NCBI RefSeq assembly: GCF_009914755.1
Contig: NC_060927.1
DNA length: 64,000 bases
Reading direction: 5' to 3' (one strand)
Origin: the human T2T-CHM13v2.0 reference genome, Homo sapiens
Numbering within the stretch: position 1 is the stretch's first letter; each line of letters begins with the position of its first letter. A program made the translations under genes and the position numbers. Under the pieces are notes generated by a model. That model saw only the letters and a list, made by a program, of their open reading frames with translations. It did no database searches and was not told where the DNA came from. Shown here one piece after another: positions 27,404-64,000 of this stretch.

Positions 27404-27631
27404 TTTTTTAAAATTTTATTATTATTATTATGCTTTAAGTTTTAGGGTACATGCACACGATGTGCAGGTTTCTTAAAAATGTATACATGTGCCATGTTGG
27501 TGTGCTGCACCCATTAACACGTCATTTAGCATTAGGTATATCTCCTAATACTATCCCTCCCCACTGCCACCACCCCACAACCGTCCCCGGAGTATGATGT
27601 TCCCCTTCCTGTGTCCATGTGTTCTCATTGT

Positions 27632-30600
27632 TCAATTTCCACCTACGAATGAGAACATGCAGTGTTTGGATTTGTGTCCTTGTGATAGTTTGCTGAGAGT
27701 GATGGTTTCCAGTTTCATCCATGTCCCTACAAAGGACATGAACTCATCATTTTTTATGGCTGCACAGTATTCCATGGTATATATGTGCCACATTTTCTTA
27801 ATCCATTCTATCATTGTTGGACATTTGGGTTGGTTCCAAGTCTTTGCTATTGTGAATAGTGCCGCAATAAACATATGTGTGCATGTGTCTTTATAGCAGC
27901 ATGATTTATAATCCTTTGGGTATATACCCAGTAATGGGATGGCTGGGTCAAATGGTATTTCTAGGTCTAGATCCCTGAGGAATCGCCACACCGACTTCCA
28001 CCATGGTTGAACTAGTTTACACTCCCACCAACAGTGTAGAAGTGTTCCTATTTCTCCACATCCTCTCCAGCACCTGTTGTTTCCTGACTTTTTAATGATC
28101 ACCATTTTAACTGGTGTGAGATGGTATCTCATTGTGGTTTTGATTTGCATTTCTCTGATGGCCAGTGATGACAAGCATTTTTTCCTGTGTTTTTTGGCTG
28201 CGTAAATGTCTTCTTTTGAGAAGTGTCTGTTCATATCCTTTGCCCACTTTTTGATGGAGTCATTTGTTTTTTCTTGTAAATTTGTTTGAGTTCATTGTAG
28301 ATTCTGGATATTAGCCCTTTGTCAGATGAGTAGGTTGCAAAAATTTTCTCCCATTTTGTAGGTTGCCTGTTCACTCTGATGGTAGTTTCTTTTGCTGTGC
28401 AGAAGCTCTTTAGTTTAATTAGATCCCATTTGTCAATTTTGGCTTTTGTTGCCATTGCTTTTGGTGTTTTAGTCATGAAGTTCTTGCCCATGCCTATGTC
28501 CTGAAAGGTATTGCCTAGGTTTTCTTCTGGTATTTTTATGGTTTTAGGTCTAACATGTAAGTCTTTAATCCATCTTGAATTAATTTTTGTACAAGGTGTA
28601 AGGAAGGGATCCAGTTTCATCTTTCTACATGTGGCTAGCCAGTTTTCCCAGCACCATTTATTGAATAGGGAATCCTTCCCCCATTTCTTGTTTTTGCCAG
28701 GTTTGTCAAAGATCAGATGGTTGTAGATATGCAGCATTATTTTTGAGGGCTCTGTTCTGTTCCATTGATCTATATCTCTGTTTTGGTACAAGTACCATGC
28801 CGTTTTGGTGACTGCAGCCTTGTAGTATAGTTTGAAGTCAGGTAGCATGATGCCTCCAGCTTTGTTTTTTTGGCTTAGTATTGACTTGGCAATGCGGGCT
28901 CTTTTTTGGTTCCATATGAACTTTAAAGTAGTTTTTTCCAATTCTGTGAAGAAAGTCATTGGTAGCTTGATGGGGATGGCAATGAATCTATAAATTACCT
29001 TGGGCAGTATGGCCATTTACATGATATTGATTCTTCCTACCCATGAGTATGGAATGTTCTTCCATTTGTTTTTATCCTCTTTTATTTCCTTGAGCAGTGG
29101 TTTGTAGTTCTCCTTGAAGAGCCCCTTCACATCCCTTGTAAGTTGGATTCCTAGGTATTTTATTGTCTTTGAAGCAATTGTGAATGGGAGTTCACTCATG
29201 ATTTGTCTCTCTGTCTGTTATTGGTGTATAAGAATGTTTGTGATTTTTGCATGTTGATTTTGTATCTTGAGAATTTGCTGAAGTTACCTATCAGCTTAAG
29301 GATATTTTGGGCTGAGGTGATGGGGTTTCCTAGATATACAATCATGTCATCTGCAAACAGGGACAATTTGACTTCCTCTTTTCCTAATTGAATGCCCTTT
29401 ATTTCCTTCTCCTGCCTGATTGCCCTGGCCAGAAATTCCAACACTATGTTGAATAGGAGTGGTGAGAGAGAGCATCCCTGTCTTGTGCCAGTTTTCAAAG
29501 GGAATGCTTCTGGTGTTTGTCGATTCAGTATGATATTGGCTGTGGGTTTGTCATAGATAGCTCTCATTATTTTGAGATATGTCCCATCAATACCTAATTT
29601 ATTGAGAGTTTTTAGCATGAAGTGTTTTTGAATTTTGTCAGAGGCCTTTTCTGCATCTATTGAGATAATCATGTGGTTTTTGTCTTTGGTTCTGTTTATA
29701 TGCTGGATTTCATTTATTGTTTTGTGTATGTTGAACCAGCCTTGCATCCCAGGGATGAAGCCCACTTGATCATGGTGGATAAGCTTTTTGATGTGTTGCT
29801 GGATTCGGTTTGCCAGTATTTTATTGAGGATATTTGCATCAATGTTCATCAAGGAAATCGGTGTAAAATTCTCCTTTTTGGTGGTTTCCCTGCCAGGCTT
29901 TAGTATCAGGATGATGCTGGCCTCATAAAATGAGTTAGGGAGGATTCCCTCTTTTTCTATGGATTGGAATAGTTTCAGAAGGAATGGTACCAGCTCCTCC
30001 TTGTACCTCTGGTAGAATTCGACTGTGAATCCATCTGGTCCTGGACTATTTTTGGTTGGTAAGCTATTGATTATTGCCTCAATTTCAGATCCTGTTATTG
30101 GTCTATTCAGAGATTCAACTTCTTACTGGTTTAGTCTTGGGATGGTGTATGTGTCCAGGAATTTATCCATTTCTTCTAGATTTTCTAGTTTATTTGCATA
30201 GAGGTGTTTGTAGTATTCTCTGATGGTAGTTTGTATTTCTGTGGGATCAGTGATGATATCACCTTTAACATTTTTTATTGCATCTATTTGATTCTTCTCA
30301 CTTTTCTTCTTTATTAGTCTTGCTAGTGGTCTATCAATTTTGTTGATCTTATCAAAAAACCAGCTCCTGGATTCATTAATTTTTTGAAGGGTTTTTTGTG
30401 TCTCTATTTCCTTCAGTTCTGCTCTGATTTTAGTTATTTCTTGCCTTCTGCTAGCTTTTGCATGTGTTTTCTCTTGCTTTTCTAGTTCTTTTAATTGTGA
30501 TGTTAGGGTGTCAATTTTAGATCTTTCCTCCTTTCTTTTGTGGACATTTAGTGCTATAAATTTCCCTCTACACACTGCTTTTAATGTGTCCCAGAGATTC

Positions 30601-61900: not shown

Positions 61901-64000
61901 TCCTCCCTAACTCATTTTATGAAGCCAGCATCATCCTGATACCAAAGCCTGGCAGAGACATGACAAAAAAAGAGAATTATATACCAATATCCTTGATGAA
62001 CATTGATGCAAAAATCCTTAATAAAATACTGGCAAACTGAATCCAGCAGCACATCAAAAACTTATCCACCATGATCAAGTGGGCTTCATCCCAGGGGGGA
62101 TGCAAGGCTGGTTCAATATATGCAAATCAAAAAATGTAATCTGGCATATAAACAGAACCAAAGACAAAAACCACATGATTATCTCAATAGATGCAGAAAA
62201 GGCCTCTGACAAAATTCAACAACGCTTCATGATAAAAACTCTCAATAAATTAGGTATTGATGGTACGTATCTCAAAATAATAACAGCTATCTATGGCAAA
62301 CCCACAGCCAATATCACACTGAATGGACAAACACCGGAAGCATTCCCTTTGAAAACTGGCACAAGACAGGGATGCCCTCTCTCACCACTCCTATTCAACA
62401 TAGTGTTGGAAGTTCTGGCCAGGGCAATTAGGCAGGAGAAGGAAATAAAGGGCATTCAATTAGGAAAAGAGGAAGTCAAATTGTCCCTGTTTGCAGATGA
62501 CATGGTTGTATATCTAGAAAACCCTATCGTCTCAGCCCAAAATCTCCTTAAGCTGATAAGCAACTTCAGCAAAGTCTCAGGATACAAAATCAATGTGCAA
62601 AAATCACAAGCATTCTTATACACCAATAACAGACAAACAGAGAGTCAAATCATGAGTGAGCTCTCATTCACAATTGCTTCAAAGAGAATAAAATACCTAG
62701 GAATCCAACTTACAAGGGATGTGAAGGACCTCTTCAAGGAGAACTACAAACCACTGCTCAAGGAAATAAAAGAGGATGCAAACAAATGGAAGAACATTCC
62801 ATGCTCATGGGTAGGAAGAATCAATATCATGAAAATGGCCATGCTGCCCAAGGTATTTTACAGATTCATTGCCATCCCCATCAAGCTACCAATGACTTTC
62901 TTCACAGAATTGGAAATAACTACTTTAAATTTCATATGGAACCAAAAAAGAGTCCGAATTGCCAAGTCAATCCTAAGCCGAAAGAACAAAGCTGGAGGCA
63001 TCATGCTACCTGACTTCAAACTATACTACAAGGCTACAGTAACCAAAATAGCATGGTCCTGGTACCAAAACAGAGATATAGATCAATGGAACAGAACAGA
63101 GCCCTCAGAAATAATGCCACATAACTACAACTATCTGGTCTTTGACAAACCTGACAAAAACAAGAAATGGGCAAAGGAGTCCCTATTTAATAAATGGTGC
63201 TGGGAAAACTGGCTAGCCATAAGTAGAAAGCTGAAACTGGATCCCTTCCTTACACCTTATACAAAAATTAATTCAAGATGGATTAAAGACTTACATGTTA
63301 GACCTAAAACCATAAAAACCCTAGAAGAAAACCTAGGCAATACTATTCAGGACATAGGCATGGGCAAGGACTTCATGTCTAAAACACCAAAAGCAATGGC
63401 AACAAAAGCCAAAATTGACAAATGGGATCTAATTAAACTAAAGAGTTTCTGCACAGCAAAAGAAACTACCATCAGAGTGAACAGGCAACCTAGAGAATGG
63501 GAGAAAATTTTTGCAACCTACTCATCTGACAAAGGGCTAATATCCAGAATCTACAATGTACTCAAACAAATTTACAAGAAAAAAACAAACGACCCCATCA
63601 AAAAGTGGGCAAAGGATATGAACAGACGCTTCTCAAAAGAAGACATTTATGCAGCCAAAAAACACAGGAAAAAATGCTCATCATCACTGGCCATCAGAGA
63701 AATGCAAATCAAAACCACAATGAGATACCATCTCACACCAGTTAAAATGGTGATCATTAAAAAGTCAGGAAACAACAGGTGCTGGAGAGGATGTGGAGAA
63801 ATAGGAACACTTTTACACTGTTGGTGGGAGTGTAAACTAGTTCAACCATGGTGGAAGTCGGTGTGGCAATTCCTCAGGGATCTAGACCTAGAAATACCAT
63901 TTGACCCAGCCATCCCATTACTGGGTATATACCCAAAGGATTATAAATCATGCTGCTATAAAGACACATGCACACATATGTTTATTGCGGCACTATTCAC
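58909..64000 (+). mobile_element. L1 (L1PA4/L1PA5-type), missing ~600 bp of 5' UTR, running off the window end; inactive
   Basis: Begins CCTGTCTGACAGCTTTGAAGAG, equivalent to ~34028 of the minus copy. ORF1 59325-60329 and ORF2 from 60393 both have stops/frameshifts. Retains the 129-bp 5' UTR segment (~59070-59199). Confidence 0.95.

What the first reader, a model, noticed from the sequence alone, without database searches (positions are those of the whole stretch)
27404..64000. Inverted L1 pair around ~24 kb of unique DNA shows patchy near-identity: gene conversion and a candidate invertible segment
Seen: the minus L1 (27404-34641) and plus L1 (58909-end) are inverted repeats. By hand alignment 63601-64000 vs revcomp 27852-28251 differ at only 6 of 400 nt, whereas ~62510-62700 vs ~29150-29340 differ at roughly 17 sites in ~185 nt. 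They share bases absent from the younger L1 copies in this window: CACAGGAA (KHR vs KHM; 63667/~28184), GTTAAAATGGTGATC (63741/~28100), CCATGGTGGAAGTCGG (63846/~27995), CTAGACCTAG (63882/27961), GCCTCTGAC (62202/~29640), ACAAACACC (62327/~29515) and TTCATTGCC (62865/~28980). AAGTGAGAAG (61542/~30300) differs from the L1 consensus as I recall it. Established: inverted homologous L1s are substrates for NAHR inversion and non-allelic gene conversion. Inference: two independent insertions that have repeatedly paired and converted each other, so 34.6-58.9 kb may flip between haplotypes or species right next to the satellite edge.
Basis: partly seen in the sequence, partly recalled or inferred. Interest (0 to 1): 0.8.

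Follow-up and report, generated by a model that had tools for sequence, protein, structure and literature searches.

The report
Two inverted L1s, one conversion tract
Two old, independently inserted L1 retrotransposons that face each other across 24 kb of human chromosome 3 have copied about 0.7 kb of sequence from one to the other, which is a known kind of event, and nothing here shows that the DNA between them flips.

Summary
A full-length minus L1 (27404-34641, split by a nested L1) and a 5'-truncated plus L1 (58908-64456, running past the window end) form a 5.5-kb inverted pair, 93.1% identical.

Over their whole length the two copies are no closer to each other than to unlinked L1s (93.3-94.3% and 92.4-93.8%). 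Outside one stretch, their differences follow the ordinary regional rate (chi-square p=0.81).

In 63591-64286, paired with 28261-27566, they share 12 variants that are rare in 41 unlinked copies. Two k-mers spanning five of these variants occur only in these two elements in the whole genome; the common form of one k-mer occurs 218 times. The clustering beat all 20000 shuffles. One localised non-allelic gene conversion explains this best.

Nothing supports inversion:
- The plus L1 has a perfect 17-bp target-site duplication.
- A published T2T inversion call set lists nothing near this site.
- The longest perfect identity between the copies is 155 nt.

This is an ordinary example of a known process.

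The parts
27404..32286 (-). Minus L1 (M), 3' part: poly(A) end at 27404 up to the nested insertion
   Evidence: blastn of M against the window; inverted arms; flank read
33366..34641 (-). Minus L1 (M), 5' part up to its 5' end. M is 6159 nt without the nested element. No target-site duplication was found.
   Evidence: The 17-mer next to the 5' end has no second copy in the window at up to 3 mismatches.
32287..33352 (+). Nested younger L1 3' fragment with an inverted 5' piece (32287-32546 minus, 32546-33352 plus). The 13-bp target-site duplication lies at 32274-32286 and 33353-33365.
   Evidence: (I3, I8)
34642..58890 (.). 24.2-kb spacer between the two L1s. It holds a 148-nt L1 3' fragment at 54827-54972.
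58891..58907 (+). 5' copy of the plus L1's 17-bp target-site duplication, AAAATATAGATTACACT. The 3' copy is at 64457-64473, outside the window.
58908..64000 (+). Plus L1 (P), 5'-truncated. It starts at position 614 of M and continues to about 64456 beyond the window end.
63591..64000 (+). Conversion tract in P. It continues to 64286 outside the window. 12 shared rare variants fall within 63591-64286. The core, 63681-64023, has only 2 differences.
27566..28261 (-). Conversion tract in M, the partner of 63591-64286. The core is 27829-28171.

Best explanation
Two L1PA-type LINE-1 elements inserted independently in opposite orientation, 24 kb apart, just outside the chromosome 3 alpha-satellite edge. 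Both have since decayed to about 4-5% from the majority state of unlinked copies. At some intermediate time, a break in one copy was repaired using the nearby inverted copy as template. This non-allelic, non-crossover gene conversion overwrote about 0.7 kb, 170-865 nt upstream of the 3' end. By recall, not tested, this is the end of ORF2 plus the start of the 3'UTR. The donor's private mutations therefore now sit in both copies (12 shared variants), and each copy has since added its own (8 and 12). One event is enough. A second, younger event in the 343-nt core (2 differences) is possible but not required. The rest of the pair evolved independently. Shown: the independent insertions, the clustered haplotype that is unique in the genome, the ordinary divergence elsewhere, and the intact flanks of the plus L1. 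Inferred: the repair mechanism, the single event and the timing. By the ratio of private to shared changes, the event lies roughly 45% of the elements' age ago.
For: Independent origin:
- P has a perfect 17-bp target-site duplication at 58891-58907 and 64457-64473.
- P starts at M position 614, while M is full length.

Shared haplotype:
- In 63591-64286 there are 12 sites where P=M and at most 6% of 41 unlinked copies agree, with 8 P-only and 12 M-only changes. In the next 134 nt there are none.
- Against an 11-copy panel, 13 of 37 derived sites in the tract are shared and rare, against 12 of 383 outside it (Fisher p=5.6e-9).
- A sliding scan for such clustering was matched by 0 of 20000 label shuffles at window sizes of 20, 30 and 40 sites, and by 3 of 20000 at 60.

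Genome-wide uniqueness:
- The 44-mer with 63830G and 63850G has 2 hits, P and M. The common form of the same 44-mer has 218 hits.
- The 31-mer with 64178C, 64182T and 64191T has 2 hits, P and M.
- Of 22 unlinked carriers of the 63745A/63751T k-mer, 20 were fetched. None has 63850G or 63887C.
- No unlinked element carries two of the five single-variant k-mers.
- None of the 6 best unlinked matches to M that were fetched (places 3 and 5-9's list; place 4 was already in the first panel, and place 10 tied on score) carries more than 2 of the 12 variants.

Reciprocal best matches over the tract:
- With P's 421 nt as query, M is top at 98% and the next hits are 97%.
- With M's 696 nt as query, P is top at 1161 bits and the next hit scores 1113.

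Elsewhere the pair is ordinary: 93.13% overall, against 93.3-94.3% (P) and 92.4-93.8% (M) to 11 unlinked copies. Window counts outside the tract fit the regional rate, p=0.81.
Against: - Raw identity in the tract is only modestly unusual. There are 7 differences in 410 nt, against a mean of 16.9 for 15 unlinked pairs (Poisson p=0.006). In 64001-64286 there are 14 differences, and 121 of 351 unlinked pairs do as well or better.
- In the 3'UTR part alone, M only ties with unlinked copies as P's best match; one unlinked copy scores higher.
- My crude GENECONV-like test gave 47 of 5000 shuffles for the pair, and P-M was not the top-scoring pair in the alignment. The longest mismatch-free run was not significant, at 1703 of 5000.
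- Only the best 40 of 3063-7487 first-look candidates were scored in each similarity search. Exact k-mers would also miss decayed relatives, so a sub-lineage of up to about five other members is not excluded.
- 8 of the 12 shared variants are transversions, against 3 of the 20 private ones. Ordinary donor mutations do not predict this.
- Polarity and date cannot be obtained from one genome.
Confidence: 0.75

Rival explanations
1. Common source lineage. P and M are siblings, or parent and daughter, from a very small L1 sub-lineage, and the shared variants were inherited at retrotransposition rather than exchanged afterwards.
For: A few shared rare variants also lie upstream at 59119, 61299, 61545, 62206, 62332, 62335 and 62869 (0-1 of 11 panel copies). 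Four of them are transversions, which is somewhat more than coincidence would give by my own rough estimate. M is full length and so could once have been a source element.
Against: Inherited variants should be spread along the element. Instead 13 of 25 lie in 696 of about 5500 nt. The pair is not closer overall than either copy is to unlinked L1s. The three upstream variants tested as k-mers recur in 5-68 unlinked copies, and never together. Two members of a tiny family landing 24 kb apart in 3.1 Gb would need an unknown local-insertion bias.
Confidence: 0.1
2. The two L1s pair repeatedly, with many short conversion patches along their length, and crossover outcomes flip the 34.6-58.9 kb segment between haplotypes or species.
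For: The pair is a 5.5-kb inverted repeat at 93% identity. L1 pairs do flank balanced human inversions: 22 L1-flanked cases, with 21 of 22 pairs above 90% identity (passages of bioRxiv 10.1101/2021.12.20.472354). The core of the tract is much cleaner than its flanks, which would fit a second event. Window 62316-62515 has 7 differences against 13.6 expected and holds three shared bases.
Against: Outside the tract there is no excess patchiness (p=0.81). P's target-site duplications are intact, so this genome shows the orientation at insertion, or an even number of flips. Table S1 of PMC10150506 (44 sample columns, T2T coordinates) lists 11 chr3 calls, none between 90.92 and 134.7 Mb. The longest perfect identity is 155 nt. 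The pair's 93% is below the 97.2% median of L1 pairs at known inversions.
Confidence: 0.1
3. No exchange at all. The shared bases are coincident mutations, and the high identity reflects a slowly diverging part of L1.
For: Each single variant that was tested recurs in unlinked copies: 22, 24, 15, 68 and 5 carriers. Panel copies are also most alike in 63520-63920.
Against: Twelve coincidences in 696 nt, where my rough estimate expects fewer than one. The clustering was matched by 0 of 20000 shuffles. The two multi-variant k-mers are found only in P and M, while the common form has 218 copies.
Confidence: 0.05

Closest known systems
Non-allelic (interlocus) gene conversion between dispersed retrotransposon copies. 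It is best documented for Alu, with raised rates between copies less than 10 kb apart (passages of PMC6598467; mentioned in PMC8232201).
   Same: Independent insertions of one family lie close together on a chromosome. A short tract shares otherwise private variants. Divergence on either side of the tract is ordinary.
   Different: Here the partners are L1s, not Alus. They are inverted, and the two tracts lie about 35 kb apart. The tract is about 0.7 kb. No cross-species evidence for polarity is available here.
L1-flanked balanced inversions formed by non-allelic homologous recombination (bioRxiv 10.1101/2021.12.20.472354, passages)
   Same: An inverted L1 pair above 90% identity brackets unique DNA.
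   Different: No second orientation is documented. The flanks of the plus L1 are not swapped. Identity is 93% against a median of 97.2%. The spacer is 24 kb against a median inversion size of 5.6 kb.
Arm-to-arm gene conversion in large palindromes of the sex chromosomes (recalled; no call)
   Same: Inverted repeats separated by a spacer exchange sequence without crossover.
   Different: Palindrome arms are homogenised along their whole length to about 99.9% identity. Here only one short tract is affected, and it has since diverged by 3%.

Membership tests
Non-allelic gene conversion tract between repeats | The partners are paralogues of independent origin, not one duplicated segment | tested here: met
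   P has its own 17-bp target-site duplication. The 5' ends differ (P starts at M position 614). Homology stops at the L1 ends.
Non-allelic gene conversion tract between repeats | A bounded segment in which the two copies share derived variants absent from other family members | tested here: met
   12 shared rare variants lie in 63591-64286 and none in 64287-64420. The multi-variant k-mers are unique to the pair, against 218 hits for the common form.
Non-allelic gene conversion tract between repeats | Background divergence outside the segment | tested here: met
   Chi-square 15.3, df 21, p=0.81 against the regional rate. Overall identity is not raised.
Non-allelic gene conversion tract between repeats | Significance in a fragment-based test of the GENECONV type | tested here: inconclusive
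   My own crude version gave 47 of 5000 shuffles for the score and 1703 of 5000 for the longest run. Gaps inflated the scores of other pairs. The scan of shared-rare sites gave 0 of 20000. The GENECONV program itself was not run.
Non-allelic gene conversion tract between repeats | Orthologues in other species show the state before conversion, and which copy was the donor | not testable with these tools
   Only this one human genome is held.
NAHR inversion between inverted L1s | Inverted repeats several kb long with above 90% identity | tested here: met
   5.5 kb at 93.13%. However, the longest perfect match is 155 nt.
NAHR inversion between inverted L1s | Chimeric repeats with swapped flanks or target-site duplications | tested here: not met
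   P carries the same 17-mer on both sides. M has no recognisable duplication at all, which is uninformative.
NAHR inversion between inverted L1s | Both orientations seen among haplotypes or species | tested here: not met
   Table S1 of PMC10150506 has no chr3 call between 90.92 and 134.7 Mb. That is one call set of 44 sample columns. Apes and larger pangenomes were not examined.
Primate L1PA LINE-1 | About 6-kb element with poly(A) end, target-site duplication and close similarity to thousands of genomic copies | tested here: met
3063-7487 first-look candidates, with the best at 95-98%. M is 6159 nt. P has poly(A) and a target-site duplication.

The most novel reading that the evidence does not exclude
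The conversion tract marks ongoing pairing between the two L1s. On this reading the clean 343-nt core is a second, recent (hominin-age) event. The tract sites are still polymorphic in people, and the 24-kb spacer next to the centromeric satellite has flipped in some ape lineage or in rare human haplotypes. The transversion-rich shared set might then reflect error-prone repair synthesis rather than ordinary decay.
Probability: 0.1. Interest if true: 0.45.

Novelty: new member of a known kind. Interest (0 to 1): 0.25.

Why it matters
The finding adds one clean, sequence-level example of gene conversion between inverted L1 copies whose tracts lie about 35 kb apart. It also shows that L1 age or subfamily estimates taken from a 3' end can be distorted locally. 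It makes a simple prediction for ape T2T assemblies about which copy was the donor and when the event happened. It does not identify a new mechanism. It gives no evidence of structural instability beside the chromosome 3 centromere.

Tried and rejected
- **Sub-subfamily signature.** It is rejected for the tract. It is accepted as coincidence or minor recurrence for the upstream bases.
- **Biased first panel.** The 28 unlinked copies first fetched were the cleanest matches to P, not its closest kin. Rarity in that panel alone was therefore not trusted. A second panel, the k-mer carriers and M's best matches were added.
- **GENECONV-like run and score test**. It was weak and disturbed by gaps, so it is not relied on.
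- **Parent-daughter origin.** Rejected on the distribution of shared sites.
- **A partner for M's missing target-site duplication.** A search of the window with up to 3 mismatches found nothing.
- **The L1 at 15214-17506 as a rearrangement partner.** Rejected, because it has its own target-site duplication.
- **Genome Research 2026 inversion paper (PMC13629690).** Its data set starts from segmental duplications and excludes repeats made only of transposable elements, so it cannot bear on this pair (passages).
- **Supplements of the bioRxiv preprint 10.1101/2021.12.20.472354.** They were not opened; the task text says bioRxiv supplements are closed. Its Table S2 might list this site in GRCh38 coordinates.
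Full report
**What is there**

The window is human T2T-CHM13 chr3:96472001-96536000, and the whole genome could be searched.

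- Bases 15-26130 are a divergent 171-bp tandem array with 81-82% matches between units. I recognise it as monomeric alpha satellite by recall. A 5'-truncated L1 at 15214-17506, with its own target-site duplication, interrupts the array.
- The minus L1 (M) runs 27404-34641. It is full length, 6159 nt once a nested element is removed.
- The nested element, 32287-33352, is a younger L1 3' fragment with an inverted 5' piece. This is the pattern expected from twin priming. It has a 13-bp target-site duplication.
- The plus L1 (P) starts at 58908, which corresponds to M position 614. It runs past the window end to about 64456.
- P is flanked by a perfect 17-bp duplication, AAAATATAGATTACACT, at 58891-58907 and 64457-64473.
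- M has no recognisable duplication.

**Checking the observation**

- All eight quoted motifs are present in both copies.
- Overall P and M are 93.13% identical over 5528 aligned bases.

**Is the pair unusually alike?**

Over the whole length it is not.

- I fetched 20 unlinked L1s, chosen as the best genomic matches to P's 63580-64000, and kept the 11 that were full length or nearly so. The other nine were truncated or had their main match on the other strand.
- P is 93.3-94.3% identical to these 11 copies, and M is 92.4-93.8%. The pair is therefore no closer than strangers are.
- In 200-nt sliding windows, P-M is the closest pair from both copies' sides only in the windows starting at 63721, 63821, 64021 and 64121 (the 63921 window ranks first for P only).
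- Outside the tract, the P-M mismatch counts in 22 windows follow the regional rate estimated from panel-to-panel distances (r=0.69; chi-square 15.3, df 21, p=0.81).

**The tract**

- Against the 11-copy panel, sites where P and M share a base carried by at most one panel copy number 25 of 420 derived sites. Thirteen of these lie in 63591-64286 (Fisher p=5.6e-9).
- A scan for such clustering was matched by 0 of 20000 shuffles at window sizes of 20, 30 and 40 sites, and by 3 of 20000 at 60.
- I then used a larger panel of 41 unlinked copies, made up as follows:
  - 27 of the 28;
  - 6 of the 12;
  - 6;
  - the two other L1s of the window.
  Seven copies that were only partly homologous over this stretch were dropped, as listed in the script.
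- With that panel, the 696-nt tract has 12 shared rare variants, 8 changes private to P, 12 private to M, and one site where both differ.
- The next 134 nt have no shared rare variant, 2 private to P and 9 private to M.
- The core, 63681-64023, has 2 differences in 343 nt. It contains the two longest perfect matches of the pair, 155 and 132 nt.

**Is it only a sub-subfamily signature?**

My first panel consisted of unusually clean copies rather than P's closest kin, so I scanned the whole genome for exact k-mers.

| k-mer (variants spanned) | Total hits | Unlinked carriers |
|---|---|---|
| 44-mer, 63830G + 63850G | 2 (P and M) | 0 |
| Same 44-mer, common form | 218 | not applicable |
| 31-mer, 64178C + 64182T + 64191T | 2 (P and M) | 0 |
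| 63745A + 63751T | 24 | 22 |
| 63887C | 26 | 24 |
| 61545T | 17 | 15 |
| 62206C | 70 | 68 |
| 62869T | 6 | 5 |

- For 62869T, M itself was missed because it has a private difference inside the typed stretch.
- No unlinked element appears in two of the five single-variant lists.
- Of the 22 unlinked carriers of the 63745 k-mer, I fetched 20. None has 63850G or 63887C; 8 have 63830G, and those are much more diverged copies.
- The best unlinked matches to M over the tract (6 fetched: places 3 and 5-9 of the list) carry 0-2 of the 12 variants.
- P and M are each other's best match over the tract.
- In the 3'UTR part alone, however, M only ties with unlinked copies.

**Reading**

The combination of variants is private to two elements whose tracts lie 35 kb apart. 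It is confined to 0.7 kb, and it is flanked by ordinary divergence. A proximity-dependent, non-reciprocal copying event explains this: non-allelic gene conversion.

A double crossover, meaning inversion and re-inversion at different points, would swap segments rather than make them alike.

In the tract, each copy's total of shared plus private changes is 20 for P and 24 for M in 696 nt. That is about 3%, close to their general level. This fits a donor that had already accumulated the 12 variants, followed by independent decay.

The ratio of private to shared-plus-private changes puts the event at very roughly 45% of the elements' age ago. This is inference only; absolute dates would rest on recalled L1 subfamily ages and were not computed.

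The core is cleaner than a single event predicts, but the ORF2-side part of the tract also diverges more slowly among unlinked copies. A second, younger event is therefore possible and not required.

**Weak points**

- By raw identity the tract is only modestly unusual. There are 7 differences in 410 nt, against 11-22 in 15 unlinked pairs. In 64001-64286 there are 14 differences, which 121 of 351 pairs equal or beat.
- My GENECONV-like test was weak.
- Similarity searches scored only 40 of thousands of candidates. Exact k-mers miss decayed carriers, so a tiny sub-lineage of up to about five further members cannot be excluded.
- Eight of the 12 shared variants are transversions, against 3 of the 20 private ones. 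This is unexplained. Part of it is ascertainment, because five further shared transitions are common in the panel and so were not counted as rare.

**The upstream shared bases**

The shared bases at 61545, 62206, 62332/62335 and 62869 are real. The three tested as k-mers each recur in unlinked copies and never together. Their number is near what coincidence gives by my rough estimate, though four transversions are somewhat more than I would expect. Window 62316-62515 has 7 differences against 13.6 expected (p=0.04 uncorrected). It is at most a hint of a second small patch.

**Inversion**

This haplotype therefore has the orientation present when P inserted, or has flipped an even number of times.
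- The T2T-based inversion call set of PMC10150506 has 44 sample columns in Table S1. I searched it, and it lists 11 chr3 rows, none between 90.92 and 134.7 Mb.
- Known L1-flanked inversions have pairs with a median identity of 97.2%, and 21 of 22 pairs are above 90% (passages of bioRxiv 10.1101/2021.12.20.472354).
- The present pair, at 93% with at most 155 nt of perfect identity, is a poor but not impossible substrate.
- Ape assemblies and larger pangenomes could not be examined, so the inversion part remains untested rather than refuted.

**Comparison with what is known**

Gene conversion between dispersed retrotransposon copies, more frequent between near neighbours, is established, chiefly for Alu (passages of PMC6598467). 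I searched once for L1-specific treatments and found no paper on this locus; that is one search only. The finding is a new example of a known kind, of modest interest.

Noticed in passing
window 32274-33365: An L1 3' fragment is nested inside the minus L1. Its 5' piece is inverted (32287-32546 minus, 32546-33352 plus), and it has a 13-bp target-site duplication, AAGGACTTCT(C/G)TG. This is the pattern expected from twin priming. It must be younger than its host.
   Followed up: partly
window 27380-27403 and 34642-34658: The full-length minus L1 has no recognisable target-site duplication. The 17-mer beside its 5' end has no second copy in the window, even with 3 mismatches. The other three L1s examined here all have a duplication. 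A deletion at insertion or a later rearrangement at its poly(A) side, 1.3 kb from the satellite edge, is possible.
   Followed up: partly
window 15-26130: A 171-bp tandem array with 81-82% matches between units; by recall, divergent monomeric alpha satellite. It is interrupted at 15214-17506 by a 5'-truncated plus L1 with the target-site duplication AAAGACTGTTTCA. The two RefSeq 'enhancer' features of the hub's table lie inside this array.
   Followed up: partly
window 63591-64000 and L001 to window-equivalent 64286: 8 of the 12 shared tract variants are transversions (T>G twice, A>C twice, C>G, G>C, A>T, G>T), against 3 of the 20 copy-private changes in the same tract. Ordinary decay of a donor copy would not give this spectrum.
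   Followed up: no
window 62316-62515: The only window outside the tract with fewer P-M differences than expected (7 against 13.6, uncorrected p=0.04). It holds shared bases at 62327, 62332 and 62335. It could be a second small exchange or chance.
   Followed up: no
window 54827-54972: A 148-nt plus-strand L1 3'-end fragment, 88.5% identical to the minus L1, lies inside the spacer. It appears to have a short flanking repeat (AAACAGAT / AAACAAAT).
   Followed up: no
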